Source: a virus (lineage: Duplodnaviria; Caudoviricetes). From it: 59,544 bases of DNA. A program made the position numbers and the translations under genes. The DNA is taken from positions 1 through 59,544 of IMG/VR virus record IMGVR_UViG_3300030397_000318; one strand, written 5' to 3'. Of this stretch, positions 223 to 59,477 are shown piece by piece. Below the pieces are notes generated by a model that saw only the letters and a program-made list of their open reading frames with translations, was not told the origin of the DNA and ran no database searches. Each line of letters opens with the position of its first letter. Position 1 is the stretch's first letter.

Positions 223-2799
223 CTATCTCCGGCGGCGTTTTCGCTCGTAACCACGAACTACTTTGTGCTGATTTAGCTGCGCGGATTGTGCATGACGCCG
301 CCATATTTGTCCATGCGTCAAATGTTTCGAGCCGTAGGCAAACGCCATAATGATGGAGTCGGCAAGGTCTGGCGACCGGCCAAGACGGGTTTTGATTTCG
401 GACTTGGGTTCGATGCGGATGCCTTGCTTCGTCATCTCATAGCGACTCGCAACCAACTCGGCCAGTAGCTCTCGGTCGGGCGGAAGTGCGATATCGGAAC
501 CGCCGGGTTGATCTGGATCAAGTGCCTCTCGGAACTTCCAATAGGCCTCGGCACGCTTGTTGTAGAACCCCAGAAGTCGATCTGCGGTACGCGCGGCAGA
601 GCTTTCCTGTCCCTTGAAGCCGTGGCACGTAAATTGGTTGGCTCTCAGGTGTTCATAGGTCGCGCCGCCATAACCACCGCCCATGTCGACGATGATCTCG
701 GCTTGGTTCTTCCGGTACTTCATGACCAGAGCCGCCACGTCGGCACCGGAGCGGGTGTCCTTTCCCGGCACCTGGAGTGGGCGCGCGAACCAGTTACCGT
801 ACCGAGGGGCCAAGACGGTGCGATCCTTGCCGCCCTGGGCCACGTCTACGCCAATGGCGCACATCGGGACATCCATGGGCGGGCGCTGATGCCAGCGCTG
901 CTGGGCTTGGAGTACCCAGTTGGTCGGGATTACCTGCCATTCATCGTCGTCATGGGAAATCATCCAGTTCCCATCACGGACGGCAGATCTTAACGGTTCC
1001 GGGAGCGAATCCAGTTTCGCATCATATCCCGTACCCGTGAGAAAAGGGTTATCCGTGAGGCGGGCGGGGATGAATGTTCTCGATAGAGGTTTGACGTATC
1101 GTGGAAGACCGTCTTGGTCATGTCCCATTTGTACGGGTTCCGGACCATCCACCTCCTGATCCTCGCCTTCTTCATCTGACACATACCATCGTAGCTCTCC
1201 AGGTTCGGCAGGGTTGGGGTGGTGGGGGTCTAGCCACGGCTCAAACATCTTCATGAGCCATTGGCCTTCGGAGGGTTTCTCCGGAGGATTAGTTGCTAGA
1301 ATGATTCGGCATCGCTGGCCCGGTTCGGTTGAGCGATTCCATCCGGAAAGGAATCGGAATTGAGATTCGAGGAATTGAGATGCCTCATCTAGACAATTCT
1401 GATTGATAAATCCACCTTGGGTGATATAATGATTCTCCCCATCCACTTCGATATCGTAAAGGTCGACAACACCCAATGACTCGTAAGAGAATTTCGAAGA
1501 AAAGACAGACTCACTCGCTCGACGTTCATCCATCGTATAAGGGTGGGCGTACCATATGTTACGGAAAGTACGTTTGGGAGTTTGTTCCCGGCCATCATCT
1601 TGCGAACCAGTGGGGATGGGCGGCGCAACACAGGCTGATTGGTGAAGATATAGCCGGGCGTCCCTTAGAATCTTACGAGTGCGTCCATCACAGGGATCAC
1701 GACCCCCTGAACAACGATCCATCGAATCTCCAGATAATGACCAAATCGGCCCATCACTCTCTGCATTCTCGGAAATATAACGAGGATAAGTGGCTGGAGA
1801 GAGGGATAACTGCTGAAGCCGTAGAAGAAGCTCTTGAGGGGCGAACGATAAAAGAAGCCGCCGAGTCTCTTGGAATAACCCATATGACCCTGCGGCATCG
1901 ATTCCCCGAACAAGTCGCGCCAAGGAAACGGAAATCTCCGACACGAGCCGACGACCCGGAACTTGTGGCAATCGTGCGAAAATACGCCGAAAGCGATCAG
2001 CACTCGATGAAAATGCTGTGCGATATGACCGGTGTGTCGCCTCGGACACTGGTGAAGTGTGTGGAGATAAACGATATCCACTGGATACCGAAATCGAAGA
2101 AGGGAATGATCCACCGAACGTATCGTGGGAAACCCACCCAGCGGTGGTTAGAAGCGAATGGGTTGCTGACTGAACCTGAGAACCCCACGGAGTAATAATT
2201 CGGACGGCATCGTCGCGCCTGACCGGATAGATGCGCGTGACGCGCCGAGCGCCCTGGAGCGTCTGGACACGCATACCGACCTTCAAATCTTGGATTGCTA
2301 GATAAGAGCCGTCTCCCATAAGGACGGGAGTGTCGCGTCCGACACACAACAAGTCAAAAGGTTGCCCCTTATAGTGCTCCTCATCGCCGGGGTCTTTCGC
2401 CCCCCCGAAAACAATCCTTCTTCCATCTCGTGTACGCAGTGTCGCTGGAGCGCTCCCATTGAATCCATCACGGCTTCCGTATTGCTTCAGCGTATCCTCG
2501 ATGATGCTCCCCATGTCCGAATATTGCCGCCGGATGAGGAGACAGTTCTTGTGCCGCGTGAGCGCAAGCCCCGTGACCAAGGCGGATTTCCCGCCGCCTG
2601 CTTGGCCCCCATACAACAAAATGTCAGCAGGTGAATTATACGCCTGTTCTTGCGGACCCGGATTCGGTATCCAGCAGTCAGGGACCAGTGCGTAAGCCTG
2701 TTCAGCGACTTTCTGGAGTTCTTCATGTGGAAGATCGTCCAGCTTCCTCTGAATCTCGTCGAGCGTTGGCTCTTTGCTCACCAAGGCTTGGGAGGTCAT
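223..2799 (-). CDS. terL: terminase large subunit, intein-containing
   Basis: PNPGPQ Q-motif, Walker A YGGQAGGGKS, Walker B FDLL|CLDEA split by an intein, ATNP coupling motif, RNase-H-like nuclease motifs IGVDVA and SPDLADS; start taken at MTSQ (2799). Confidence 0.95.
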   Translation of the reverse strand: MTSQALVSKEPTLDEIQRKLDDLPHEELQKVAEQAYALVPDCWIPNPGPQEQAYNSPADILLYGGQAGGGKSALVTGLALTRHKNCLLIRRQYSDMGSIIEDTLKQYGSRDGFNGSAPATLRTRDGRRIVFGGAKDPGDEEHYKGQPFDLLCVGRDTPVLMGDGSYLAIQDLKVGMRVQTLQGARRVTRIYPVRRDDAVRIITPWGSQVQSATHSLLTTAGWVSHDTFGGSFPSSISVSSGYRLSPHTSPVSEATHRSYRTAFSSSADRFRRIFARLPQVPGRRLVSEISVSLARLVRGIDAAGSYGLFQETRRLLLSFAPQELLLRLQQLSLSPATYPRYISENAESDGPIWSLSGDSMDRCSGGRDPCDGRTRKILRDARLYLHQSACVAPPIPTGSQDDGREQTPKRTFRNIWYAHPYTMDERRASESVFSSKFSYESLGVVDLYDIEVDGENHYITQGGFINQNCLDEASQFLESQFRFLSGWNRSTEPGQRCRIILATNPPEKPSEGQWLMKMFEPWLDPHHPNPAEPGELRWYVSDEEGEDQEVDGPEPVQMGHDQDGLPRYVKPLSRTFIPARLTDNPFLTGTGYDAKLDSLPEPLRSAVRDGNWMISHDDDEWQVIPTNWVLQAQQRWHQRPPMDVPMCAIGVDVAQGGKDRTVLAPRYGNWFARPLQVPGKDTRSGADVAALVMKYRKNQAEIIVDMGGGYGGATYEHLRANQFTCHGFKGQESSAARTADRLLGFYNKRAEAYWKFREALDPDQPGGSDIALPPDRELLAELVASRYEMTKQGIRIEPKSEIKTRLGRSPDLADSIIMAFAYGSKHLTHGQIWRRHAQSAQLNQHKVVRGYERKRRRR
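1396..2346 (-). mobile_element. intein (317 aa) in terminase Walker B
   Basis: Block A CVGRDTPVLMGDG, block B SATHSLLT, block F/G VVDLYDIEVDGENHYITQGGFINQN followed by +1 Cys; removal restores FDLLCLDEASQF. Confidence 0.92.
1476..2195 (+). CDS. HNH homing endonuclease encoded antisense within the intein
   Basis: HRLIGEDIAGRPLESYECVHHRDHDPLNNDPSNLQIMTKSAHHSLH HNH motif, followed by HTH-like segments (TIKEAAESLGITHMTL). Confidence 0.88.
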   Translation: MTRKRISKKRQTHSLDVHPSYKGGRTICYGKYVWEFVPGHHLANQWGWAAQHRLIGEDIAGRPLESYECVHHRDHDPLNNDPSNLQIMTKSAHHSLHSRKYNEDKWLERGITAEAVEEALEGRTIKEAAESLGITHMTLRHRFPEQVAPRKRKSPTRADDPELVAIVRKYAESDQHSMKMLCDMTGVSPRTLVKCVEINDIHWIPKSKKGMIHRTYRGKPTQRWLEANGLLTEPENPTE

Positions 2800-3442
2800 T
2801 GCGTATCTTGATCTCGTACAAAGTACTTTCGGGTGCCTTACCCTTATCATACTTTGCCGCAATGGCCTTACAAGAGTCCACATCCTGAAGAGTGGGCAGG
2901 CAGTCGCGTCGTGCCTTCTCCAGATCAGGCTTGGAGCATCGACCTTCCTCGTAGGCAGTCTGACACCATGCGTACCGAGCCAGCCGCCGGGAAAATCTCA
3001 TGAAGAGGTAGACCATCCAGCCGTTGAGCGGGTGGTATTCCGGGCCGCGCTGAAGCTCGTGGCCGAAGCCTACAAGAATGACCGGCCTGGAGCTTTCGTG
3101 CCCGTAGAGTTGCCCCATGCGCGCGTACCACTTCCGAGTGATATCGGTATGGTGCTCGATGTAGCTCTCGCGGTTCGGCTCGTAGGGCTTGGGCTTGTAT
3201 TCCTCGTGAGCGATGTTCGGATTGAAAACAGGTGCCTCGGGTCTGTCGGTATCGAGCCACCCCTTGGCCCTGATCCAAGTACCCGGATGTTTCGCATATT
3301 TTCCGGTGCGTAACACATAGGCGTTGTATACCTCGGCTGCCTCTTTATCTCCCGGCCACTCGGTCTTGGTCTTGTACGCCTTCTCGGCGTTGCCCTTACC
3401 GGTCTTCCACTCAACTAGTTCCCAGAACTTGTCGAAGGGCAT
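2723..3442 (-). CDS. protein with phage replication-initiator C-terminal-like domain
   Basis: FDKFWELVEWKTGKGNAEKAY...YAKHPGTWIRAKGWLD resembles the F..FW..YP.K..K..A...HP.TWL...W.D motif of phage replisome organisers. Confidence 0.55.
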   Translation of the reverse strand: MPFDKFWELVEWKTGKGNAEKAYKTKTEWPGDKEAAEVYNAYVLRTGKYAKHPGTWIRAKGWLDTDRPEAPVFNPNIAHEEYKPKPYEPNRESYIEHHTDITRKWYARMGQLYGHESSRPVILVGFGHELQRGPEYHPLNGWMVYLFMRFSRRLARYAWCQTAYEEGRCSKPDLEKARRDCLPTLQDVDSCKAIAAKYDKGKAPESTLYEIKIRNDLPSLGEQRANARRDSEEAGRSST

Positions 3443-48658: not shown

Positions 48659-48984
48659 GGCACCAATCTCCAGTACTTCTCGCTAATTTGCTCGAACCCA
48701 AAGTGCTCCAAGAGCGTGGCCCCTTTCGGGCCGGGAGTAGCCATCAGAGGAATTCCTTTCTCCTTGGCCATATCGATGCAAATCTTTGCACATTTCACGA
48801 TCTGCCGGGGAGTCATCGCATCGGTGTTGTCAGACCATACCCAAAGTACTTCTCCGGATATCTGGAACCCGGCCATACCGATGATTTCTCCGTCTTGTTC
48901 CGCAACCCACGCCTTCGTGGTGTGAGGCGGATGCCGACCATAAAAGTTCTTGAAGTCCTTTCTCGTTGCTGGACGTATTTCCAC
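48640..48984 (-). CDS. GNAT-like protein (T7 gp13-like position)
   Basis: IRPATRKD...WVAEQDGEIIG...LLEHFGF; GTG start overlaps the nozzle stop. Confidence 0.6.
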   Translation of the reverse strand: MEIRPATRKDFKNFYGRHPPHTTKAWVAEQDGEIIGMAGFQISGEVLWVWSDNTDAMTPRQIVKCAKICIDMAKEKGIPLMATPGPKGATLLEHFGFEQISEKYWRLVPWQQQA

Positions 48985-51689
48985 TAAGCTTTCTCGTTCA
49001 TGTCGATACTCACTATAGCACCCAAAACCGTAACTGGATGAGGCGCCTGAGCACGCAGAACGATGCGCGAGTCCGTTGTCCATCTTCCGGGAACGGGAAT
49101 GCCCTGTTCGTCGTACTCGGAATGTACCTTGTCAGTGGAGACTGTTGCCGCGTTCTCCACGCGGGGAAGTCCCCGAAGATCTGCCGTCGAAGTAGTTTCG
49201 CCGATGTGCAAGCTCTGCGCATGAGCATCGGCGAGGATCAGCCCAACATGATTCACCCGTTTCTTTTGGGTGAGGGATGTTCCCATCTTGTCGCCGTAAC
49301 CAAGCTTACCGGATTTATACCATCCGTCGTATCCGAGTCCGTAATAGACGGTGGTTGAGGCTGTAGCCACGTCAAAGCTCCCGGTCGAGGAGACAGTGGC
49401 AGTTCCAAGATCGACTCCTGTACCACCCCAGCAGACAACAGTTTCTCCGACGAGATGGTCCGCTCCCGTGACTGCTGTAGTCGCCGCCGTCGAGTTAAAA
49501 GTTCCAAGACTGTCAGCAATCTTGTTCGTCGAATCTCCTCGGGCCTCTGACTCTTTAGCCCATCTCTCGATGTATCGAACCGTCGACCCGTTAACCTCGC
49601 GTTTGACGACATAGTAGACCTTATCCTCTTCTGCCCCAGGAAGAACCGCGATGTCTTCGATGCAGCCGTTGGCTCCCGTCGAAGTAATATCCAGCCAGCC
49701 AACTACGTTTTCGACCGGTTCCGAGATGAGCATACCGACCGTGCCATCCGAGCGGATGCAGTGAACTCGCGTATCAGGCTGGCGCTGCACCCCCATCTGG
49801 ACGATACCCGGCTCACCGATCTCCGGGATGAGTACTGAGCGCTCCGCCGTCTCGAAATCCAGGCTGTCACCAGTGTACCCAACCTCATACACGCGCGTGC
49901 CGCCGCGCTGCACGAAGAGTGCCCGCTTGTCGATCTTGATTGCCTGCACCTGGGTCGATCCATGGTCCGAGACATCACGCAGGGAGAAGTTCGTGGGTGT
50001 AACCGGCGCTTCCAGCGAATCTGTCTTAACCTGGATTTCACGGGACTCAGCACCGATGATGAGCCGCCCGAGCGAAACCATCCAAGGGATGTGATCCACC
50101 GCACCAGTACCAATGCTCCGATTGAGCGGGCCAGCGTTTGAATCGTCATCCTCATCAAAAGACTCGTAGGCATCCGAAATGGACCCCCAGACCGACCCCT
50201 TACCTGCCCAGAACAGCCGTCCTTCGTGGAACCGAACCGCCGTGGGGTAGCCTCGGAAGCCACTCCACTCACCTTCAGACCAAAGCTCCGAAGATTCTGT
50301 CGAACCGAAATTGGTGATCACGCTCGCCGAGGATTCTGTTGCGCCAGACACCGAATTAATTCTGGCCACCCCAGTGATGCCGCCACCCGGAAAGATGAGT
50401 GTGGCGATGCTCGTGGACGAATCTCCCGTATAGTCACCGGTGTTCATTCCAATACGGTAGTAGACGATCTGATTGTCGAGCGTATCGTCGTGGGTGGAAT
50501 CAATCGTCGACGTGTACGAAAGCCCACTCACGTTGGCAAACGAGTCAGACGACCCAATGGAGCGCTGCACCTTGATGGTGCCGTCCGTCGCGCCGTGCTG
50601 GGTGATGAGAATCTGGAAATTCCTTCCCTCATCCACACCGGTTACCCGGATGGCGTCCGAGAACTGATTCTCACCTGTAAGATTGATCGAAACTTCCTGG
50701 CCAGCAGAAGTGATTTTGAAGAGCGCACCCACATGCGAGGAGTCGAACACATCACCGTCAGCGGAAAGCGTGATATCCCCAGACAAGTCCGAAGGCGCGA
50801 GACGGCTGTTTCCGGTATTGATGATCCGGTACGGCCCATCCTCCGGCTCGTAGGCTGCTATGCCCCACGACCGGGTGGCATATCGCTCAATTCGACGCTG
50901 GGGAAGATCTTTGCAGGCAACAAAAGTTACGTCACCAGATGGATCGGTTCGGATCAACTCAAGGTCAGTTGAGTTCCATGTCGTGGGGATAACCAGATTG
51001 CCCGACGAGTCCACGCTGAAGGAGGTAACCCGAGAAGTATATCCGGTGTTTGACTCCACCTGGACGTAGATGTTCGACGACGGCGAAATCGAGAAGTCGT
51101 AGGTGCCGGGGCGCAGCGTTACCGGGGAGAGATAGTCTCCTCCGCCTGTGGACGATCCCATCCGGAGATCGACGCGCCCTCGGTCGATGACCACTCTGAT
51201 GCCGTGTTCGGTATTGGCGTCGGTTGAGGCGACGGTAACGGTCTGACGCCGACGAGCCGAGGCGTATCTTGTCCCCTGGAGTCCCAGATAACTTCCAGTG
51301 ACCCAGTAAGACGTACTCCCGCTATCGTCAGCGTCCGTCCAGCCGGTGAGGTCGCTGGTGAAAGCACCATTCGTGAATGTCGAGGACACACCGGATCGCG
51401 TGACGATTGCTTCATCAACCCAAATCCTCATGTTTCCGCCCGTAAGCTCAATAAGGGCGGTATCGTTGTTGTCGAATATGAACGGAATCAGCCGTGCCGA
51501 GGAATTACTTCTGGTTCCACCGACGTACTCCAACCCAGGACGCAGCATCATGCTTCCCAGGACACGAGGGACCATGTTGGTCTGAAGATCGGCGGATACC
51601 GCCGTGCGATCTAAGTCTGTACGAGCGAGGCCGAGGCGCGAAATGCGCCCCCGGTTGAAGATGATCCGCTCAATGTTGCCACGAGGCAT
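48984..51689 (-). CDS. tail nozzle / tail tubular protein B
   Basis: FNRGRIS...N..P...G...RPG start, GYPTAVRFHEGRL, beta-propeller-like, 901 aa. Confidence 0.88.
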   Translation of the reverse strand: MPRGNIERIIFNRGRISRLGLARTDLDRTAVSADLQTNMVPRVLGSMMLRPGLEYVGGTRSNSSARLIPFIFDNNDTALIELTGGNMRIWVDEAIVTRSGVSSTFTNGAFTSDLTGWTDADDSGSTSYWVTGSYLGLQGTRYASARRRQTVTVASTDANTEHGIRVVIDRGRVDLRMGSSTGGGDYLSPVTLRPGTYDFSISPSSNIYVQVESNTGYTSRVTSFSVDSSGNLVIPTTWNSTDLELIRTDPSGDVTFVACKDLPQRRIERYATRSWGIAAYEPEDGPYRIINTGNSRLAPSDLSGDITLSADGDVFDSSHVGALFKITSAGQEVSINLTGENQFSDAIRVTGVDEGRNFQILITQHGATDGTIKVQRSIGSSDSFANVSGLSYTSTIDSTHDDTLDNQIVYYRIGMNTGDYTGDSSTSIATLIFPGGGITGVARINSVSGATESSASVITNFGSTESSELWSEGEWSGFRGYPTAVRFHEGRLFWAGKGSVWGSISDAYESFDEDDDSNAGPLNRSIGTGAVDHIPWMVSLGRLIIGAESREIQVKTDSLEAPVTPTNFSLRDVSDHGSTQVQAIKIDKRALFVQRGGTRVYEVGYTGDSLDFETAERSVLIPEIGEPGIVQMGVQRQPDTRVHCIRSDGTVGMLISEPVENVVGWLDITSTGANGCIEDIAVLPGAEEDKVYYVVKREVNGSTVRYIERWAKESEARGDSTNKIADSLGTFNSTAATTAVTGADHLVGETVVCWGGTGVDLGTATVSSTGSFDVATASTTVYYGLGYDGWYKSGKLGYGDKMGTSLTQKKRVNHVGLILADAHAQSLHIGETTSTADLRGLPRVENAATVSTDKVHSEYDEQGIPVPGRWTTDSRIVLRAQAPHPVTVLGAIVSIDMNEKA

Positions 51690-52339
51690 TAGCCAATCAG
51701 GGCGGAACGGCGTCCCCTGTCCCTACGTCCACTGTACCGTCCCGAACGAGATGATGCCCACGAAGACAAAGGCGGGAAGCGTACCGGTTCCGCACTGGCG
51801 TCCTTGGAGCGCGCGTCATTCAGAACTTTCTTCACGCGAGCTTCCAGCTTCTCGAACTGTGCATCGTTCAAGAGAGACGGCCCCACCTGCGAAGCGAGGT
51901 AGTATCCCACCCACATGGTAAAGGTATCCGGCCAGAGGGACATATCATTCCCCCAACTGGTGTCGTCGGACACGTACCGCATGTAGATCGGGTCTACGTC
52001 GCAGTAGATATACGCGCCCTCCAGTTCGTACAGCATCAGCGGTTGTGAGAAGTACTCGCTGGCAGAGAGTTGATCCAGCCGGATGTAATCGGTCGGGATG
52101 CTGAAGGCGTTGTTGAACCCAAACGACGGCGTGACCGAGCTATCCTTGTCGATCTGCACCGCACGCTTGGCAAAGTTCCACAGGCCTTGCTCCAGACAAT
52201 ACGACACAGCCCCCTTGCCCCTGTCCCACACTTCATCGAGGAGATACCGGACTTCGGCATCATCCGTGATGGCGTCGAGCTTCCGCTCTTGAAGCGCGAG
52301 ACAGGCGATGTTGTAGACGGCGAGTCGGTCAGTTGCCAT
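51689..52339 (-). CDS. tail adaptor / tail tubular protein A
   Basis: YNIACLAL...WNFAKR...FSIPTD.IRL pattern. Confidence 0.85.
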   Translation of the reverse strand: MATDRLAVYNIACLALQERKLDAITDDAEVRYLLDEVWDRGKGAVSYCLEQGLWNFAKRAVQIDKDSSVTPSFGFNNAFSIPTDYIRLDQLSASEYFSQPLMLYELEGAYIYCDVDPIYMRYVSDDTSWGNDMSLWPDTFTMWVGYYLASQVGPSLLNDAQFEKLEARVKKVLNDARSKDASAEPVRFPPLSSWASSRSGRYSGRRDRGRRSALIG

Positions 52340-53180: not shown

Positions 53181-54041
53181 TTAGACCGCAACGTAGGCGG
53201 AGCCATCGTGCAAAACCTGCACAACGCCACCCTGCTGCATGAGGACGGAACCCATATGCACCGAGACACGGCACCACGAATACGCCTGTTCCTCATCGTA
53301 GCCGATGGGCGCGTCGATACCGGAGGTATCCACGGCACAGCCGATGGCGTCACGATGATAGAAGTAGCATTGTTCGGAGGTGCCAGCACCCCCAGCACCA
53401 ACACTACCAGTCAGGCGCGGGTGAACGATCCAGTTGAAGCCTGCCCACCGGCGGAACCGACGCGCGGGTCCGGTGAAGGGCTGCACGTTCACATAATCGG
53501 CGGATGCATACTCGGGGATCTGCATGAGATACCCCTCGAACGCAGGCGTCACCAACGCGAACATATTGTCTTCGTCGGTGATGTCCACGAAAGCATTTCC
53601 GAGGATCGTGCGGGCATCAACCACCATGTCCAAGGACGCCGTTTCCGCCGTCGCCGCAGTGGCGTTCGTGGCGGTGTCCAATTGGGCAATGATGATATCG
53701 TCCATCTTACGGTTGACGACGGCCATCGAGGTCATTTGCATGATCCTGCGCTGGTCGCCTTGGGATGCGAACACGTTGAAGTTCGTCTTCCGGACCAGAT
53801 CGTGCCACTCTTCCAAGAGAGCGGTGTTCTGGGTCTCGTTGTCGGAACGAGCCGAAATCAGACCATCAACGCCTCGCGTCTGGGCAGTTGCGGAGCCACT
53901 GTCGGCCACGAGGAAAATCGCTTCGTTGCCCTTGATCACGGCTTCCTGCACGCAGGTTGACCGTAGGACGGACTGGCGATCCTCAAAGCCCGCAATGAAC
54001 TCCTGCCTATAATGCCTTTGGGCGGCATCGACGGAGGGCAT
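53181..54041 (-). CDS. major capsid protein
   Basis: YRQEFIAGFE.RQS.LR...NRKMDDIII...WAGFNWIVH; strong AGGAG RBS; position after the scaffold. Confidence 0.9.
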   Translation of the reverse strand: MPSVDAAQRHYRQEFIAGFEDRQSVLRSTCVQEAVIKGNEAIFLVADSGSATAQTRGVDGLISARSDNETQNTALLEEWHDLVRKTNFNVFASQGDQRRIMQMTSMAVVNRKMDDIIIAQLDTATNATAATAETASLDMVVDARTILGNAFVDITDEDNMFALVTPAFEGYLMQIPEYASADYVNVQPFTGPARRFRRWAGFNWIVHPRLTGSVGAGGAGTSEQCYFYHRDAIGCAVDTSGIDAPIGYDEEQAYSWCRVSVHMGSVLMQQGGVVQVLHDGSAYVAV

Positions 54042-54236
54042 TGGTCTTTTCTCCTATAGGTTCAAACGTGCCTACAGGAAAGGTTGTCCGTTGGAAGTGA
54101 TAGTTGGGGTGTCAGCAGTATTATATGTTGCTTGTTGCCGGTGCTGGGCCGACTGTCACCACCATTGGGGCGATCCATCTGGCGGTTAAAGCAACCAATG
54201 GGGCCGGATTACGGGTTGTCCGGGTTGCGCACGCCA

Positions 54237-54266
54237 AAAATAGTTCTGAGATGGGAAGATTGTCAA
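54237..54266 (-). promoter_or_regulatory. sigma70-like promoter for the capsid gene
   Basis: TTGACA (54266-54261), 17-18 nt, CTATTT/TATTTT. Confidence 0.55.
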
Positions 54267-54274
54267 GGGAGGGA

Positions 54275-54304
54275 ATTAAAACCCGTGAGACTACCGGGTT
54301 TAAT
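54275..54304 (-). terminator. terminator-like hairpin at the ncRNA 3' end
   Basis: AAACCCG-GTAGTCTCA-CGGGTTTTAATT on the minus strand. Confidence 0.65.
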
Positions 54305-55048
54305 GGGCTGTCTTTTGTTTGGCGTACCGACAGAGTGCTACCCCTGCCGTTACCAACGTGTCCACCCCCGTTACCAGAGGTATCAACCCGACACTGGCAA
54401 GTTAGGCTTGCCACTCCTTAGCGAACGATGCTTCTCCAAGCTTTCCTACCGGGTTGAGGTGGCCGCCCCAATTCGGTCGGGTATACTTGAAACCACTTCC
54501 GCTTGCGACTTCCGTGGCTCCTCCTTCCCCGCAGAGGGAGGACTTAAGCGTCTTTCACACCGTCCCGACCGGCACTTTGCATTTTGACAATCTGTCACGC
54601 GTTTCGAGCGCGGTGTCGCAGTCACGCGACGTGCAAACCTACGACGACGAGGCCGGTCGGAACCTCCATCTCCTTTTGAGAGACGGAATAGCTCTCACCG
54701 CCTGCACCTCCGGTATGACCCTTTGGCACCGAACTTCAGGAGTCTTCGGAACCCCTTGGCTCTGCGACCCGCCCTCGTCCACCGACTCGGACTTCTGCCA
54801 CTACCGCTTGCTTTTATGCCGACGCGACGTTGAGTACTGGCGGCGGTTTCACCCACCTTTTCACCCCTCACCGTTGGCCTGGGGCTATCGCTATGACCAG
54901 TCGTCCTGCCGGATTACCTCCCTCGTCGGAAGGAGCCTCACGACTTAAGCTGCGGCTTGCTTGGATGGACCCCCGAGGGGGCGATGCTATGTAGGCTTCA
55001 CACCTTTACCGATGTCTCCATCGGCTATCCTGTGATCCCAAGCAACCG
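54275..55048 (-). ncRNA. large structured ncRNA, GOLLD-like (~775 nt)
   Basis: ORF-poor 1 kb gap bounded by a promoter and a terminator; many nested stems; segments UAUUCCGUCUCUCAAAAGGAGAUGGAG, GUAGGUU...AAAAUGCAAAG, GUGUGAAAGACGCUUAA recalled as GOLLD-like (not model-verified). Confidence 0.7.
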
Positions 55049-55054
55049 AGGGGA

Positions 55055-55083
55055 GATATATGAACGCAACAAGGCGTTGTCAA
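55055..55083 (-). promoter_or_regulatory. sigma70-like promoter for the ncRNA
   Basis: TTGACA (55083-55078), 17 nt, TATATC (55060-55055). Confidence 0.75.
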
Positions 55084-55086
55084 CGA

Positions 55087-55971
55087 TTATTTTGCGGTTT
55101 CGGTGATTTTTTTTACGTCGTCGGGATTGTGGGCAACGAAGGAGCGAAATTCCCTAGGATTCCGGGGATTATCGGGGATATCCTCGCGCGTGATCTTCTT
55201 GTCCCACACCACGAACTGCTGGCGTGCGACCTTCGGGGAGCCGACTTCTTCCAGTTTCCGGAGCATCCCGGATGAGATGTAGTCGGCATTCTCGGAGCGC
55301 CCGCCGCGCCCGTCGTTCGTCACGGGGAGAGGGGGTTGCGGTATCGCGCCGGAGCATGATCCGCAGTACCGGTCGACTTGATCTTGGAAGTCCTTCGGTC
55401 CCTTGTCCCACCATCCTGGTTCCATAGGGTAACCGCCGGGTCCATCAAACAGCCAGTCAAGGGAAGCTGCAATTTCGCAGAAAAAACCGCCCTTGGGAGT
55501 GACGCTGGCGCTCCAGTGGGATTGAAAAGGACAGTTGTCGATAAGTTGCCGCTTGAGTTCGGGGTCATCAACCACGTCATCAATAGCAACCAGCAGAGGG
55601 GCGTGTTTCCCGTCATATGAATAGTGGTCGTTATAGTGGATTCTGTCGGGGAAGAACGTGTGTTGGATTTGCTCTTTATACTCACCCCACTTGAAGCCCG
55701 CCACCCAGAGTTCGCGCCTGTCCTTCGGAACTAGTTCTTCCCAGAGTTCCAGAAGCTCTGTGAACTTCGGATGGAGCGCCGGTTCGCCACCCATCATGCC
55801 GATGCGACACGGGGAGTCTAACGTCGCGACGATTGCCTCGCGCGCATAGCCGACATCCATAAAATAAGGCTTCCGATGGTGCCCAACGTGCCGAGTGCAA
55901 TGGCGGCAAGAGAGATGGCAAGCGTTAGTGATGTCAATTTGGATCACCGTGTTTTCGGATATCGGCCTCAT
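55087..55971 (-). CDS. radical SAM protein in the head operon
   Basis: IDITNACHLSCRHC, MMGGEPALHP, C-terminal Cys (CPFQ, FFCE, CGSC). Confidence 0.9.
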   Translation of the reverse strand: MRPISENTVIQIDITNACHLSCRHCTRHVGHHRKPYFMDVGYAREAIVATLDSPCRIGMMGGEPALHPKFTELLELWEELVPKDRRELWVAGFKWGEYKEQIQHTFFPDRIHYNDHYSYDGKHAPLLVAIDDVVDDPELKRQLIDNCPFQSHWSASVTPKGGFFCEIAASLDWLFDGPGGYPMEPGWWDKGPKDFQDQVDRYCGSCSGAIPQPPLPVTNDGRGGRSENADYISSGMLRKLEEVGSPKVARQQFVVWDKKITREDIPDNPRNPREFRSFVAHNPDDVKKITETAK

Positions 55972-55974
55972 GCG

Positions 55975-57075
55975 CTATCCCTGTTCCGACGCGCGTCGAC
56001 CCTGGGCGCGTTGCTCCAGCTTGATTTCCGCTTCCAGAAGCTCGTTGTACCGGTGCGCCATCATGGTTTCGCCGGATTCGGGATGCTTCGGACCCTTCCA
56101 GTACTCAGAGTCTCTATCTGACATCGCTTTCTCAATGACGGCTTTCTCAGAAGCAATTGTCTGGCCGAGATTGGCACCGGTCGCAGGCGTCACGGTCGGG
56201 TGGGGATTCACCTCGGTATTGATGTCGGTCATCATCCGGATGAATGTCGCGTTGTCACCCACCAGAGTCCCATCCGGCATCCGCGCGTTGAAGAGGTTCG
56301 TGGCGAAGTCTTCATCGCTGTAGGTCTCAACGAGGTTGTTCATGCCATTCAGGTTGGCACGGTATTCGTTGCCCCACTCGGCGCGAAGCTCGTCTTCCGT
56401 TTCCTGGCGTATGGCAAGATCAAACTCGTGGCGCATGGCCAGCGCGTTCTGTTCGTTCTCGTGATACCACGAGAGCGCGTCATGCACGGCAGACGGCGGC
56501 ATATCCTTCGCGTGCGCGTTCTCCAAGAAGGAGTTCAGCGCAGGCTCGTCCTGTTCGCCGAAGACCAGACCTTCCGGCATATTCTCCAGGTATCCTGCCG
56601 GTTCCGAAGGAATGCCTTGAGTCTCACGCCACGCATTCATCTCATCGTCGGTGGCGTCTTCACCGGGTTTCGACGGAACGACTTCGCCGGAAGACATCTT
56701 GTTGTTGAGAGCAACCCAAGACTTGGCGACATTTGACGGGGAATTGAAACGGCTCAGTCTTTGGACTAGTTTCTCGTCCCCTCCAGCCATGATTTCGCGC
56801 CAATTGTCGGGCCAGCTTGCCGGAGAGCCGGTATCGGGGTCGCCGCCACCGCCACCTCCAGAGATAGAAGGAGCGGGTTCACCCCCAGCTTCGCTTCCAG
56901 CATCGGGGACGGGACCGCTGCCTCTTGGCTCCCCGGAGGCGGGGGCCGGAGAACCATCACCGGGAGGGGCATTACCCGGCGGCGCTGCTGGGGGTGACTC
57001 GGTGCCGCCCGTCCCAGCGGCGTCAGGGGCCGGTGTTCCACCGGAATCAGGTACTACTGGGGCTGCTTCTGCCAT
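55975..57075 (-). CDS. capsid scaffolding protein
   Basis: Pro/Gly-rich N-terminus, WPDNWRE, LRAEWG.EY..N; position between portal and MCP. Confidence 0.82.
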   Translation of the reverse strand: MAEAAPVVPDSGGTPAPDAAGTGGTESPPAAPPGNAPPGDGSPAPASGEPRGSGPVPDAGSEAGGEPAPSISGGGGGGDPDTGSPASWPDNWREIMAGGDEKLVQRLSRFNSPSNVAKSWVALNNKMSSGEVVPSKPGEDATDDEMNAWRETQGIPSEPAGYLENMPEGLVFGEQDEPALNSFLENAHAKDMPPSAVHDALSWYHENEQNALAMRHEFDLAIRQETEDELRAEWGNEYRANLNGMNNLVETYSDEDFATNLFNARMPDGTLVGDNATFIRMMTDINTEVNPHPTVTPATGANLGQTIASEKAVIEKAMSDRDSEYWKGPKHPESGETMMAHRYNELLEAEIKLEQRAQGRRASEQG

Positions 57076-57337
57076 CTCTCACATTCTCCAAACTAAGCTT
57101 GGTGTGTTTAACCACTTGCAGTCCGACGAACCGCCTGCCTTCTCGAAAGGCTGTGTCCAAAGGATTACCAGGAATATACGATTGATCATAGGTGGCGCAA
57201 AGTACTTCTACGATGAACTTCAGAGCGCGCACCTGCTGATAAGGTGTCGCCTCTCCGCGCGCCAGTGCGTTGATTGATGCAGCATCCGCCTTTTCGTAGG
57301 TCGCTACGCCACCGAATGCCCCGCCCTTTTCTGTCAT
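57047..57337 (-). CDS. Bbp19-like head protein
   Basis: TAFREGRRFVGLQV motif; position. Confidence 0.75.
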   Translation of the reverse strand: MTEKGGAFGGVATYEKADAASINALARGEATPYQQVRALKFIVEVLCATYDQSYIPGNPLDTAFREGRRFVGLQVVKHTKLSLENVRDGRSSPSST

Positions 57338-57783
57338 TAAAGATGTTTCCAGCGCCGTCCATTTTTGATGTCGGAAACCGTGGGCTGAGATATTCCGTGC
57401 TCTATGGCGATTTCGGCCTGTGGGCGCAAATCTTTCCGTATCGCCAGAACTTGTTCCTCAGTTAAGCGTGCTGATCCATGAGTCACTCCACGGGCACCGC
57501 TCCTTTGTCGCCCCTTTTTGGCCATATCCCGCATGTTGTCTTTGTGGGTGCCGAGAAAGAGATGATCTGGGTTCACGCAAAGAGTCACATCACAGCGATG
57601 GAGCACATGGGAGCCTTCCGGGATATCTCCGTGTGTTCTTTCCCAGCTTACCCTGTGGGCATAGAGAAGCTTACCGCCGACTCCGATTTGGCCATACCCC
57701 TTTGAGGCGGCACCATCCCACAACCAACAGCCGGAGTTCGGTTCCGGAATAACCTTGTCTTCAAATCTCTGATCTAACGTCAT
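57337..57783 (-). CDS. HNH homing endonuclease with C-terminal HTH
   Basis: EPNSGCWLW...AHRVSW...VLHRCDVTLCVNPDHLFLGTHKDN. Confidence 0.92.
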   Translation of the reverse strand: MTLDQRFEDKVIPEPNSGCWLWDGAASKGYGQIGVGGKLLYAHRVSWERTHGDIPEGSHVLHRCDVTLCVNPDHLFLGTHKDNMRDMAKKGRQRSGARGVTHGSARLTEEQVLAIRKDLRPQAEIAIEHGISQPTVSDIKNGRRWKHL

Positions 57784-59477
57784 CCTCGTCCCACCTGATC
57801 AGCTTCAGCGAATTGCTTCACGGCACTTGCCGCCTGATTGAGCGCCTGGGCACCTTCACCAACTTGCCCGCCAAGCATCATATTTTCCTGCTCTTGCTGG
57901 CGCTGGCGAACGATATTCTGGATTTCCCCTTCGGAGCGGGTCCATTCCGCTGGCACACCCATGCCGTCGAGCGCATCGCGGAGAGCTTTCGGCGCATTGA
58001 GAAGGTAGATCGAAGAGTCATCGATTTGAGCGGCATTTGCCAACATAGACTGTGCCTCGATAAACCGCTGGGCTTTTTTGCGGTCGGACCCCTCATGGAG
58101 CGGAGATTCGAACTTAAACTTCACTTCCGCGCCGCGAATTTCGTTCGGAATGCTGTTTATGGGGCCGAATCCCCCATTTCGGAGCATTAATTCGAACGTA
58201 TCCTCGCAAAGTGCGGCGTTATACTCGAATTCCATCGGCTCAAAGATGGGCATCGCCCTCCGAATCCACTCAGAAACGCGGTGACCTACCTCAAATGCGG
58301 TCATCTGATCACCGGTAGGTGCCGGGGGTAGGGAGAGTGAATCGAGGAAAAACGCCTTGGCAATGGCCTGTTGCGTGTCCATGCGCAATTCCATCGCGGA
58401 ATGCAGTCCGGTTCCGCCACGAACGTCATAAGCGGGACGAAGTGCCTCACCGAGCTTTTCGTCATACTCGGCATCCACCCAAGTCATACCACCTGCGAAC
58501 AGATTGATGTCTGAGCGAATCGCCTCTTGGGTTGCGACCATGGGAGGATCGGCGAACTTCTCCCCAGCCTCAAGCAACGTGAGGCTCATGGCCTGGATCA
58601 AGCGGGCATCCGGAAGCGCCGCGATCACAGCCGGGGAGGAAGCATACTGGGACGCCGGGATCGTGACCCAGCGCGGGATGATGTATTGCTTGTGGTGTGA
58701 CGGAATCTCCTCCATCACATGCTTGTTCGTGATGTCGAGCCAGACTGACACCCATGGAGTCTTGAATTTCTTGCCGTTCGAGTCTCGCGACTCGTAGTTT
58801 TCTGCCGCGATGATGATGTGACGGCACTCGATTTCAGTGAAGGGGTTTTCCTTGAGCATCGTTTTGACTTGATCGGCGACTTTCCCGCCGAATACGTCTG
58901 CCAACTGCCGTGCTGTCGGTCGCCACTTTCTCTGAATATGATCGATCTCCCCACTGTAGTTCTCTGACCACGCGACATCGCGCAGATGATGGCACCGATA
59001 GAGGAGTCCATTCCTCATATGGTTCATTTCGAGAGTCAGTGGGGCTTGTCCGAAGGTTGCGAAGCAATGGTCGCCTTCTTTCGTCGCCCGGACGAAGTTC
59101 GCAGCCTTCGTATACATAGCCTTGCGCTGCCGGAGAGTCGCCCATTCCAGCCAGCGACGGGATTCAGTAGAGATATCCTTGTCGGAACCGGTTTCCACGT
59201 CCAGACCGAACCAGACACCCGGCGACGATGAGTCCAGATTCACCGGACGCAGCAACGCAGCCAGGGAATCCCCCAAAGTCCTTCGGGCGATCACCGGATA
59301 AGACGTAGTTAGATGGTCTGCAAACTCATCACCCAGAGACCGCGTGATGGTGAAATCAGCCATCTCCGGGTAGAAGTTGAGCGCCATCTCTTGCCACAGG
59401 CTCACCAAGTCCTGCCGCTTTGAGAAAAGCTGGTCGCCATCTTCTACGAGTTTGTTATGGCGACTGTCGAATGGCAT
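57780..59477 (-). CDS. portal (head-tail connector) protein
   Basis: 565 aa; IPRW....QYASSP...ALPD, MTAFEV motif of podovirus connectors. Confidence 0.92.
   Translation of the reverse strand: MPFDSRHNKLVEDGDQLFSKRQDLVSLWQEMALNFYPEMADFTITRSLGDEFADHLTTSYPVIARRTLGDSLAALLRPVNLDSSSPGVWFGLDVETGSDKDISTESRRWLEWATLRQRKAMYTKAANFVRATKEGDHCFATFGQAPLTLEMNHMRNGLLYRCHHLRDVAWSENYSGEIDHIQRKWRPTARQLADVFGGKVADQVKTMLKENPFTEIECRHIIIAAENYESRDSNGKKFKTPWVSVWLDITNKHVMEEIPSHHKQYIIPRWVTIPASQYASSPAVIAALPDARLIQAMSLTLLEAGEKFADPPMVATQEAIRSDINLFAGGMTWVDAEYDEKLGEALRPAYDVRGGTGLHSAMELRMDTQQAIAKAFFLDSLSLPPAPTGDQMTAFEVGHRVSEWIRRAMPIFEPMEFEYNAALCEDTFELMLRNGGFGPINSIPNEIRGAEVKFKFESPLHEGSDRKKAQRFIEAQSMLANAAQIDDSSIYLLNAPKALRDALDGMGVPAEWTRSEGEIQNIVRQRQQEQENMMLGGQVGEGAQALNQAASAVKQFAEADQVGRG

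What the first reader, a model, noticed from the sequence alone, without database searches (positions are those of the whole stretch)
54275..55083. ~775-nt GOLLD-like giant ncRNA with its own promoter and terminator inside the head operon
Seen: the only ~1 kb ORF-poor gap in the structural arm. A TTGACA-17-TATATC promoter predicts a start at ~55048, exactly where a closing stem begins (55035-55047 with 54954-54966), and a terminator hairpin lies at 54275-54304. Internal stems include CCGATG/CATCGG (55009-55024), CCGACCGGC/GCCGGTCGG (54565-54573/54652-54660), TGGCAAG/CTTGCCA (54395-54413) and the CUCAAAAGG hairpin (54665-54687). The minus strand has purine-rich loops. Established: GOLLD RNAs are ~800-nt phage-associated RNAs of unknown function, often near tRNAs. 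Inference: a GOLLD member or related new class, here tRNA-free and placed between scaffold/radical SAM and the capsid gene, hinting at a role in head assembly or late infection. The family resemblance is from memory.
Basis: partly seen in the sequence, partly recalled or inferred. Interest (0 to 1): 0.85.

Follow-up and report, generated by a model that had tools for sequence, protein, structure and literature searches.

The report
Compact GOLLD RNA inserted before capsid gene
The gene-free kilobase in front of this phage's capsid gene encodes a real but unusually compact, GC-rich and tRNA-free member of the known GOLLD family of giant cage-forming phage RNAs, and it sits there because it was recently inserted, not because it belongs to the head genes.

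Summary
Rfam's GOLLD model (RF02032) matches window 54282-54703 (minus strand) over its full length: 180.5 bits against a cutoff of 150, E 3.8e-49. It is the only Rfam family found in the window. That model covers only the 3' domain.

The 5' half (about 55048-54704) is a shortened copy of a 5' domain shared by about 50 other GOLLDs. Two covariance models built from those relatives alone place their best hits there, in order and abutting each other.

The RNA is about 770 nt. It has no tRNA in its linker or anywhere in the 59.5-kb record. It has one P21-type hairpin where relatives have two.

None of 100 capsid relatives (80 viral records, 20 genomes, mostly Alphaproteobacteria) carries GOLLD. 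All 65 informative relatives have at most 253 nt before the capsid gene, against 1,045 nt here. It is therefore a lineage-specific insertion of about 820 nt, with its own promoter-like site, just upstream of the older capsid promoter.

Expression and cage assembly are inferred, not shown; no RNA data exist. This is a new member of a known kind. The scan has met GOLLD on other DNA before.

The parts
55055..55083 (-). Promoter-like site for the RNA: TTGACA (55083-55078), 17-nt spacer, TATATC (55060-55055). It starts 3 nt after the radical-SAM stop codon.
   Evidence: Read from the sequence. It is one of only 4 TTGACA-N16-18-TA sites in the window; 2.67 are expected by chance and 30 of 100 shuffles reach 4. 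The consensus scan did not call it because the second hexamer lacks the final T. Function is inferred.
54278..55048 (-). The whole GOLLD RNA, about 770 nt. The 5' end is inferred from the promoter and from the first helix. The 3' end is inferred from the last family hairpin plus the U run.
   Evidence: Rfam 3' domain. 5' domain by the relatives-only models R2 and R1. MFE -316 kcal/mol, z -3.72, 0 of 20 shuffles as stable.
54958..55047 (-). First part of the 5' domain: a closing stem (55047-55038 with 54964-54954) enclosing the covarying hairpin CCGAUG/CAUCGG (55024-55009) and two further hairpins.
   Evidence: MFE fold. Pair counts in A4 and A6. A profile of 24 relatives hits 55044-54928 at E 3.6e-5, but those relatives were fished with a motif taken from this very stretch, so that hit is partly circular.
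54802..54957 (-). Central subdomain of the 5' domain, shortened relative to relatives.
   Evidence: Model R2 (31 relatives, window excluded, 180 positions, 53 pairs): best of 52 listed hits in 4 kb on both strands, 15.0 bits, E about 0.001, full model. The next hit scores 4.9 bits.
54714..54802 (-). Third subdomain of the 5' domain. Two of its hairpins are truncated (29 nt reduced to 7, and 24 nt reduced to 11).
   Evidence: Model R1 (31 relatives, window excluded, 126 positions, 32 pairs): best of 12 listed hits, 14.4 bits, E about 0.005, filters off. There was no hit with default filters over the whole window.
54282..54703 (-). Conserved GOLLD 3' domain. It includes the junction hairpin with the UCAAAAG loop (54690-54662) and the GGCAAG/CUUGCC hairpin (54413-54395).
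   Evidence: RF02032: 180.5 bits, gathering score 150, E 3.8e-49, model 1-416 of 416.
54562..54663 (-). 12-bp long-range helix (54663-54652 with 54573-54562) bracketing the variable linker (about 54641-54574). The linker holds no tRNA.
   Evidence: A helix of 7-12 bp lies at this place in 31 of 31 distinct GOLLD variants, as 20 different sequence pairs. No tRNA by ARAGORN or Rfam.
54454..54471 (-). A single P21-type hairpin, UUGGGG-CGGCCA-CCUCAA, whose loop holds the palindrome GGCC (54464-54461). Relatives have two hairpins here.
   Evidence: 16-nt deletion against model positions about 232-247. The hairpin is present in all 6 relatives' alignments shown and in L320, L352 and L298. Naming it P21 is my inference from position.
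54275..54304 (-). Last family hairpin (CCCG 54298-54295 with CGGG 54285-54282; conserved loop GUAGUCUCA) followed by UUUUAAUU. It is a possible weak intrinsic terminator.
   Evidence: Rfam alignment, model 397-416. The terminator scan did not call it.
54237..54266 (-). Capsid promoter-like site TTGACA-18-TATTTT. It predates the insertion and is not part of it.
   Evidence: 10 of 12 consensus matches. A TTGAC-type site stands at the same place before the conserved leader in L004, L005 and L008, which lack GOLLD.
53181..54041 (-). Major capsid gene, the downstream neighbour.
   Evidence: PHROG 3437 at 3.1e-58 and Pfam PF19821 at 6.6e-27.
55087..55971 (-). Radical-SAM-like gene, the upstream neighbour. 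It is itself a clade-specific insert.
   Evidence: Only the N-terminal part matches: PF04055 at 26.6 bits, below its cutoff of 29.5. No NCBIfam equivalog comes near its cutoff. A homolog is present in 6 of 65 relatives.

Best explanation
Window 55048-54278 (minus strand) is a gene for a GOLLD RNA, a known class of about 700-850-nt phage RNAs that assemble into RNA-only cages.

Shown here:
- Its 3' domain is a full-length match to the family model.
- Its 5' domain is a shortened copy of a 5' domain shared with about 50 other GOLLDs, which are mostly found in tRNA arrays and, among the six viral contigs, mostly in very large ones.
- It was inserted as a block of about 820 nt directly after the stop codon of a radical-SAM gene and directly before the pre-existing capsid promoter. 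The phage is an uncultured podovirus-like phage whose relatives are prophages of Alphaproteobacteria and lack GOLLD.

Inferred:
- The RNA is made from its own sigma-70-like promoter, and probably also by read-through of the head operon.
- It ends at the last family hairpin plus a U run.
- It folds into a 5' 'cap' domain and a 3' 'ring' domain and self-assembles through loop-loop and A-minor contacts into a closed two-layer homo-oligomer, with the 70-80-nt linker pointing inwards.
- Because it has one P21 hairpin and a trimmed 5' domain, like the solved 700-nt Streptococcus agalactiae GOLLD (a 12-mer) and unlike env-38 (a 14-mer), the number of copies per cage may be lower than 14.
- It is an accessory cargo gene acting late in infection. 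Its place beside the capsid gene reflects a permissive, strongly transcribed insertion site, not a part in head assembly. What the cage does is not known for any GOLLD.
For: Family membership:
- RF02032 at 180.5 bits against a cutoff of 150, E 3.8e-49, model 1-416 of 416. It is the only Rfam hit in the window.
- 15 GOLLDs with the same 5'-domain type score 161-232 bits, so this score is typical for that subgroup.

5' domain:
- The 36-sequence alignment gives 113 consensus pairs, 74 of them with compensatory changes.
- With the consensus derived without the window, the window forms 62 of 116 pairs. Shuffles give 35.9 +/- 4.6, with a maximum of 52 in 2,000.
- The relatives-only models R2 and R1 have their best hits at 54957-54802 and 54802-54714. 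These are abutting, in order, on the right strand, and lie directly 5' of the Rfam hit.

Insertion:
- 0 of 80 viral capsid relatives and 0 of 20 genomes hold GOLLD.
- The gap before the capsid gene has a median of 174 nt and a maximum of 253 nt in 65 of 65 informative relatives, against 1,045 nt here.
- Alignments with L002 and with L004, L005 and L008 place the extra DNA between the radical-SAM stop codon and the shared promoter and leader.

Selection on structure:
- GC is 57%, close to the phage's 52-59%, while other GOLLD regions have a median of 39%. Yet the helices are intact, including the 12-bp linker-closing helix.
- Fold z-score is -3.72.

Cage and stoichiometry (from papers):
- env-38 is a D7 14-mer whose half-shells are joined by L21a and L21b self-kissing loops (PMC12286853, section 7).
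- The S. agalactiae GOLLD lacks P21b and parts of the 5' domain and forms a 12-mer (PMC12990946, passages).

Host class: 20 capsid relatives in genomes, mostly Alphaproteobacteria, several inside large chromosomal contigs.
Against: - There is no expression evidence. No RNA run holds the stretch, so the ends, the abundance and even transcription itself are unproven.
- The promoter's second hexamer is weak (4 of 6, no final T). The 3' hairpin is a poor terminator by the usual rules, and the scan tool called neither.
- Having 4 TTGACA-N16-18-TA sites in the window is not more than chance (30 of 100 shuffles reach 4).
- The 5'-domain model hits are modest (14-15 bits, rough E 0.001-0.005). R1 found nothing with default filters on the whole window.
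- In a sequence-only alignment the window forms only 64% of the consensus pairs it has letters for, against 95-100% in 34 of the 35 relatives and 76% in L320. Parts of the 5' fold may truly differ.
- Cage formation is taken from two other GOLLDs. This copy lacks one of the two hairpins that join the env-38 half-shells.
- My assignment of the missing hairpin to P21a or P21b rests on position arithmetic, not on the papers' figures, which I could not see.
Confidence: 0.85

Rival explanations
1. A decaying GOLLD remnant: it was captured by recombination and is now eroding (hairpins lost, tRNA lost, low family score), with no function in this phage.
For: The score of 180.5 bits compares with 311-323 bits for five canonical GOLLDs. 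One hairpin of the 3' domain is missing. The 5' hairpins are truncated. The RNA is about 90-100 nt shorter than relatives. It forms only 62 of 116 family pairs in the sequence alignment.
Against: The whole subgroup scores 161-232 bits, so the score is not a sign of decay. All signature loops are kept: UCAAAAG, GAAAG, CGCAAG, CCUAA and GUAGUCUCA. The helices are intact despite a shift of base composition to the phage's own GC, which needs many compensated changes. The losses are clean removals of whole hairpins, as in the functional, cage-forming S. agalactiae GOLLD.
Confidence: 0.07
2. Not a separate RNA but a long structured leader. It would be transcribed only as part of the head-operon or capsid mRNA and act in cis on capsid expression.
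For: There is no recognisable terminator between the radical-SAM gene and the RNA, or strictly after it. All genes here are on the same strand and tightly packed. The RNA lies 237 nt upstream of the capsid start codon.
Against: A promoter-like site conserved in GOLLD-free relatives stands between the RNA and the capsid leader, so capsid expression does not need the RNA. 65 of 65 relatives express their capsid without any such element. GOLLDs elsewhere lie in tRNA arrays, not before structural genes.
Confidence: 0.06
3. A protein-coding or mixed region whose ORFs (up to 167 aa) are the real genes.
For: ORFs of 164 and 167 aa exist on the plus strand, and ORFs of 58-97 aa on the minus strand.
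Against: 0 of 6 ORFs match Pfam or PHROGs at E<=0.1. The longest ORFs are antisense to every neighbouring gene. The stretch is fully explained by RNA models, with compensatory base-pair changes.
Confidence: 0.01

Closest known systems
GOLLD RNA, env-38 (833 nt; cryo-EM D7 14-mer; Kretsch et al. 2025, PMC12286853)
   Same: Both match the same Rfam family. Both have the two-domain layout (5' cap, 3' ring), a junction hairpin, a variable linker closed by a long-range helix, and a conserved last loop (GUAAUCUCA in the consensus, GUAGUCUCA here).
   Different: This copy is about 60 nt shorter and has 57% GC. It has one P21-type hairpin instead of two. It is not near any tRNA, whereas env-38 lies downstream of tRNA-Met. 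Its genomic setting is a head operon. I could not test whether its 5' domain is the env-38 type.
Streptococcus agalactiae GOLLD (700 nt; 12-mer; as summarised in PMC12990946)
   Same: It is a naturally trimmed GOLLD that lacks P21b and parts of the 5' domain and still forms a closed cage, joined across the two layers by a single L21-L21 kissing loop. This copy likewise has a single hairpin, whose loop holds a palindrome (GGCC).
   Different: The host lineages are unrelated (Firmicutes chromosome or prophage against an alphaproteobacterial-type podophage). I have not aligned the two sequences. Which 5' elements are missing may differ.
GOLLDs with a tRNA embedded in the linker (e.g. Mycolicibacterium tRNA-Phe, cited in PMC12990946; 14 of 15 subgroup hits here)
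   Same: They share the 5'-domain type and the 3' domain. These are the nearest sequence relatives found.
   Different: This copy's linker is 70-80 nt with no tRNA, and the whole 59.5-kb record has none. Only L320 among the 15 shares that trait.
ROOL RNA (Rfam; 8-mer cage)
   Same: It is also a large phage-associated RNA that forms a cage and is often near tRNAs.
   Different: Sequence and fold are unrelated. There was no ROOL match, even at E<=1 in the region.
About 800-nt non-coding transcript of vibriophage ICP1 (PMC7567579)
   Same: It too lies in a gap of about 1 kb without ORFs in a phage that has no tRNAs. There it is the most abundant phage transcript.
   Different: That paper does not assign it to GOLLD, and I did not compare the sequences.

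Membership tests
GOLLD RNA (Rfam RF02032) | The covariance model of the conserved 3' domain matches above the curated gathering score. | tested here: met
   180.5 bits against 150, E 3.8e-49, model 1-416 of 416, not truncated.
GOLLD RNA (Rfam RF02032) | The signature loops and helices of the 3' domain are present (UCAAAAG junction loop, GAAAG, CGCAA loops, CCUAA hairpin, last loop GUAAUCUCA). | tested here: met
   All are aligned with high posterior probability. One hairpin (model positions about 232-247) is absent.
GOLLD RNA (Rfam RF02032) | A large, structured 5' domain precedes the 3' domain (variable between GOLLD subgroups). | tested here: met
   Relatives-only models R2 and R1 hit 54957-54802 and 54802-54714 in order. 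The window forms 62 of 116 family pairs against 35.9 +/- 4.6 in shuffles. The domain is about 45 nt shorter than in relatives.
GOLLD RNA (Rfam RF02032) | A variable linker is closed by a covarying long-range helix. | tested here: met
   12 bp here. 31 of 31 distinct variants have 7-12 bp at this place, as 20 different sequence pairs.
GOLLD RNA (Rfam RF02032) | Encoded by a phage or prophage. | tested here: met
   It is a virus record. Portal, scaffold-like, capsid and tail-tube genes surround it.
GOLLD RNA (Rfam RF02032) | Association with tRNA genes (frequent but not defining). | tested here: not met
   0 tRNAs in 59,544 bases. In my samples, 61 of 156 motif-anchored IMG/VR GOLLD regions have a tRNA within 3 kb, and 44 of 46 of the same 5' type have one within 1 kb.
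GOLLD RNA (Rfam RF02032) | Self-assembly into a closed homo-oligomeric cage. | not testable with these tools
   This is known for env-38 (14-mer) and S. agalactiae GOLLD (12-mer) from papers. It needs in vitro transcription and mass photometry or cryo-EM.
GOLLD RNA (Rfam RF02032) | Accumulates during lytic growth. | not testable with these tools
   No RNA run holds the stretch. The property is reported for a Lactobacillus brevis prophage in passages of PMC12286853 and PMC7567579.
ROOL RNA | Match to the Rfam ROOL model. | tested here: not met
   Only GOLLD was reported at E<=1 in 53800-55400 with permissive filters.

The most novel reading that the evidence does not exclude
GOLLD behaves here as a portable, self-contained cassette (promoter, RNA, terminal hairpin). 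It has jumped from the tRNA arrays of large aquatic phages into the busiest intergenic site of an unrelated mid-sized podophage, shedding its linker tRNA, one cage-joining hairpin and several 5' hairpin tips on the way.

If so, whatever GOLLD does for a phage needs neither tRNAs nor the full 14-mer architecture. This about 770-nt version would then approach the minimal working unit and would be predicted to build a smaller cage, for example a 12-mer.
Probability: 0.3. Interest if true: 0.55.

Novelty: new member of a known kind. Interest (0 to 1): 0.36.

Why it matters
GOLLD's structure is solved but its function is unknown. Most copies sit in tRNA arrays of very large, uncultured phages, which makes tRNA-linked ideas hard to separate from others.

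This copy offers three things:
- It is a natural 'gain' in a phage clade that otherwise lacks GOLLD (0 of 100 relatives), so genomes with and without it can be compared directly.
- It is tRNA-free, so any benefit cannot depend on an embedded or neighbouring tRNA.
- It is a trimmed, GC-rich version. It is a good in vitro substrate for asking which elements set cage size, alongside the 12-mer and 14-mer already solved.

It also shows that position next to the capsid gene should not be read as a role in head assembly.

The value is limited. The phage is known only from metagenomes, and no expression data exist.

Tried and rejected
Searches that gave nothing useful:
- blastn (distant mode) of the 821-nt stretch against 50,697 phage records found no match.
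- The first fishing motif (GAGTGG...CCTAAC...) gave 26 viral loci, and 0 of 26 were GOLLD by Rfam.
- The second motif gave 14 loci, and 5 of 14 held GOLLD.
- nhmmer with our RNA against 203 loci gave only 3 weak hits.
- A pooled profile of 157 GOLLD upstream regions recognised only the junction hairpin (E 0.0014), because most GOLLDs have a different 5' sequence.
- nhmmer against the 75 extracts from the metagenome loci plus the window gave at best 27.6 bits, to L320, apart from the window's match to itself. No close relative was retrieved.
- Model R1 with default filters over the whole window gave 0 hits; the hit appears only with filters off on 4 kb.
- tblastn of the capsid against isolated phages gave 2 records, the best at 24% identity (a Pelagibacter phage). 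There is no cultured relative and no host from that route.

Expression: no RNA holder was listed by the look-up of sequencing runs. It returned 3 DNA runs from 1 study of aquatic metagenomes, which may be the source of this DNA.

Laid contigs:
- High-depth contigs of 2 of the 3 runs (X1, X2) cover the stretch in one piece, and X3 in two pieces. All are near-identical and may be this DNA's source. No contig lacking the RNA was seen, which proves nothing.
- Low-depth contigs (records 3, 6, 7) match only conserved pieces. I read them as diverged GOLLDs of other phages, but I could not fetch them.

Ideas I dropped:
- That the downstream TTGACA promoter arrived with the insertion. It is also present in the GOLLD-free relatives L004, L005 and L008.
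- That 'tRNA-free' is unusual for GOLLD in general. Only 61 of 156 motif-anchored regions have a tRNA within 3 kb. It is unusual only within this 5'-type subgroup.
- That this is the most GC-rich GOLLD. That holds for the 158 IMG/VR regions, but two metagenome extracts are higher: L313 at 0.60, and L361 at 0.64, the latter without GOLLD landmarks.

Limits:
- Supplementary files of PMC12286853 (alignments, tables of contacts) were closed. They may bear on the P21a/P21b assignment and on the 5'-domain types.
- The motif-anchored IMG/VR regions were not all verified with Rfam.
- Weinberg et al. 2009 and Morgado et al. 2020 were not read. They are known to me only through citing passages and a reference list.
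Full report
**What is there.** The window is a linear IMG/VR virus record of 59,544 bases, estimated 70% complete, with 52-59% GC throughout. Around the finding all genes run on the minus strand:
- portal, T7-type (57780-59477; PF12236)
- an HNH endonuclease (57337-57783)
- a small ORF (57047-57337)
- a scaffold-position protein (55975-57075; PHROG 3742, function unknown)
- a radical-SAM-like protein (55087-55971)
- a 1,045-nt gap
- the major capsid protein (53181-54041; PF19821, PHROG 3437)
- tail-tube-like proteins (51689-52339 and 48984-51689)

ARAGORN finds no tRNA or tmRNA anywhere in the window.

**Identity of the RNA.** A scan of the whole window against all 4,227 Rfam families at curated thresholds gives one match. 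GOLLD (RF02032) hits 54282-54703 on the minus strand at 180.5 bits (cutoff 150), E 3.8e-49, covering model positions 1-416 of 416. With permissive filters and E<=1 on 53800-55400 it is still the only family, so ROOL and the others are excluded.

The alignment keeps the family's signature loops and shows three differences:
- a 16-nt deletion that removes one whole hairpin (model positions about 232-247)
- an enlarged hairpin near the 3' end
- a linker of ordinary length without a tRNA

Five 'canonical' GOLLDs from viral contigs score 311-323 bits, so this copy looked marginal at first. However, 15 GOLLDs that share its 5'-domain type score 161-232 bits, so its score is normal for its subgroup.

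**The 5' half.** The Rfam model covers only the conserved 3' domain. Papers describe a less conserved 5' domain that forms a separate structural unit (PMC12286853, section 7).
- Plain similarity searches see almost nothing in 55048-54704.
- One viral locus, L274, aligned into it with visibly compensated changes. From there I found six viral loci with the same 5' domain.
- A motif taken from that domain then retrieved 73 metagenome loci, nearly all of them GOLLDs with the same layout.
- A 36-sequence alignment gives a consensus of 113 pairs, 74 of which keep pairing through changes on both sides.
- When the consensus is derived without the window (116 pairs), the window forms 62 of them. Shuffled versions form 35.9 +/- 4.6 (maximum 52 of 2,000), and versions with the 3' partner slid by 1-3 columns form 31-51. 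Typical members form 110-116.
- That alignment ignores structure, so I built two covariance models from 31 relatives each, excluding the window and avoiding the stretch that held my fishing motif. In a 4-kb search on both strands with filters off, R2 (central subdomain) has its best hit at 54957-54802 (15.0 bits, rough E 0.001; next hit 4.9 bits). R1 (third subdomain) has its best hit at 54802-54714 (14.4 bits, rough E 0.005; next hit 5.6 bits).
- Each score is modest, and R1 found nothing with default filters on the whole window. But the two hits abut each other, are in the right order and on the right strand, and end 10 nt before the Rfam hit begins.

I conclude that the 5' half is a homologous but trimmed GOLLD 5' domain. 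The model alignments show hairpin tips cut from 29 to 7 nt and from 24 to 11 nt. From my 5' fishing motif (pattern start at window 54994), the junction hairpin lies 304 nt downstream and the 3' end 709 nt downstream, against 344-371 and 783-818 in relatives.

All are present. Three belong to the Rfam consensus, and the first hairpin covaries. The stem CCGACCGGC/GCCGGUCGG is not in Rfam's nested structure. It extends to 12 bp here and has a 7-12-bp counterpart in 31 of 31 distinct GOLLD variants, written as 20 different sequence pairs. It brackets the variable linker. The 773-nt transcript folds at -316 kcal/mol, better than all 20 shuffles (z -3.72).

**An insertion, not a head gene.**
- The capsid protein has 261 confirmed relatives in IMG/VR. 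None of the records holding the best 80 (54-79% identity) carries GOLLD: 0 of 40 and 0 of 40, including 0 of 9 records at least 90% complete.
- Twenty relatives in bacterial genomes also have none (0 of 20). They are mostly Alphaproteobacteria such as Bauldia, Aestuariivirga, Reyranellaceae, Mesorhizobium and Brucella/Ochrobactrum, some inside contigs of 0.2-2.7 Mb.
- In all 65 relatives with at least 1,300 nt upstream, the space before the capsid gene is at most 253 nt (median 174).
- The closest relative, L002 (79% capsid identity), has the same portal, scaffold-like, radical-SAM and capsid order with a 216-nt spacer. Its alignment shows the window's extra DNA running from the radical-SAM stop codon to about 54268.
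- The promoter-like site TTGACA-18-TATTTT at 54266-54237 and the leader behind it are shared with GOLLD-free relatives. The insert is therefore promoter-like site plus RNA plus last hairpin, about 820 nt, dropped just upstream of the older capsid promoter.
- The radical-SAM gene occurs in only 6 of the 65 relatives, so this junction has taken up cargo more than once.

This argues against reading the position as a sign of a role in head assembly.

**Where it came from.**
- Of the six viral contigs that share the 5' domain, four are 214-424 kb, one is 64 kb and one is a 7.8-kb fragment.
- In the subgroup, 14 of 15 Rfam hits have a tRNA inside the linker, and 44 of 46 complete copies have a tRNA within 1 kb.
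- The three DNA runs that hold the window (one study, aquatic, possibly its source) also contain low-depth contigs that match only conserved pieces of this RNA. One of them continues into tRNA-like sequence where our linker starts.

I infer transfer from a tRNA-array GOLLD of a co-occurring phage, with later loss of the tRNA and adaptation to the new genome's base composition: 57% GC against a median of 39% in 157 other regions. The direction and the donor are not shown.

**How it probably works.**
- From the papers: env-38 GOLLD (833 nt) forms a 14-mer cage of 380 angstroms. Its 5' domains make the caps and its 3' domains make the rings. The linker lies inside. The two halves are joined by two self-pairing loops (L21a, L21b) and one A-minor contact.
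- A 700-nt Streptococcus agalactiae GOLLD that lacks P21b and several 5' elements forms a 12-mer, joined across layers by one L21-L21 loop pair (PMC12990946, passages).
- Our copy has one hairpin at that place, and its loop CGGCCA contains the palindrome GGCC (54464-54461). I therefore expect a closed cage, possibly with fewer than 14 copies. This is inference. The assignment of the hairpin rests on position in the Rfam model, because the figures and supplements were not available to me.
- Transcription from TTGACA-17-TATATC would start near 55048, where the first helix begins. The second hexamer is weak, and read-through from the head operon is equally possible.
- The end would be the last family hairpin followed by UUUUAAUU, a poor terminator by the usual rules.
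- One paper's passage says that a Lactobacillus prophage GOLLD accumulates in lytic growth but is dispensable for phage production. That fits an accessory cargo gene.

**Rivals.** A decaying remnant is unlikely, because the losses are whole hairpins, all signature loops and helices are kept despite a large change in composition, and the subgroup as a whole scores alike. A purely cis-acting leader is unlikely, because a conserved promoter lies between it and the capsid leader and 65 of 65 relatives do without it. Protein coding is excluded for practical purposes (0 of 6 ORFs with any family match).

**Verdict.** This is a genuine GOLLD RNA and a new member of a known family. It is notable for being compact, GC-rich, tRNA-free and freshly inserted into a phage lineage that otherwise lacks it. 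Earlier notes of this scan record GOLLD on other DNA, in giant phages with tRNAs. Expression, ends, assembly and function remain untested.

Noticed in passing
window 54042-54236 (minus strand): The roughly 200-nt leader of the capsid gene carries blocks conserved in relatives at 67-79% capsid identity (CCCGGACAACCCG, GGCCCC, CGGCCCC, GGAYAACC). It may be a structured or regulatory 5' UTR of the most highly expressed gene.
   Followed up: partly
window 55087-55971, and loci L002, L004, L005, L007, L008, L009: A radical-SAM-like gene sits between the scaffold and capsid genes in only 6 of 65 relatives. Only its N-terminal cluster region matches known families, and no NCBIfam equivalog comes near its cutoff. 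In L004 and L007 the homolog ends about 1.4 kb before the ORF-free gap that precedes the capsid start, so further coding sequence lies between it and the capsid gene. The junction looks like an insertion hotspot.
   Followed up: partly
runs X1 and X2, contig records 3, 6 and 7: Low-depth contigs (8-15x, against 182-621x for the phage) match only conserved pieces of this RNA (54391-54456, 54544-54578, 54635-54653, 54953-55011). One runs on into tRNA-like sequence at the linker. They are probably closer GOLLD relatives from other phages in the same water.
   Followed up: no
L367 2197-3076 and 5379-6254: One 7.3-kb metagenome contig carries two full GOLLD copies (231.9 and 230.8 bits), each with a linker tRNA, separated by a tRNA array.
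   Followed up: no
L111 2090-2488, L120 836-1234, L121 13123-13521: In three viral loci a tmRNA gene lies about 150 nt from a canonical GOLLD, on the opposite strand.
   Followed up: no
window 57337-57783: An HNH endonuclease gene (PF13392) is wedged between the portal and scaffold-region genes. L002 has no ORF of that size there.
   Followed up: no
window 223-2883: The 886-aa large terminase matches terminase families in two separated stretches (residues 55-683 and 498-855).
   Followed up: no
L320 2505-3345: L320 is the only other subgroup GOLLD without a linker tRNA. Its 5' domain is also divergent (81 of 116 family pairs), and it is the best, though still weak, sequence match to ours.
   Followed up: partly
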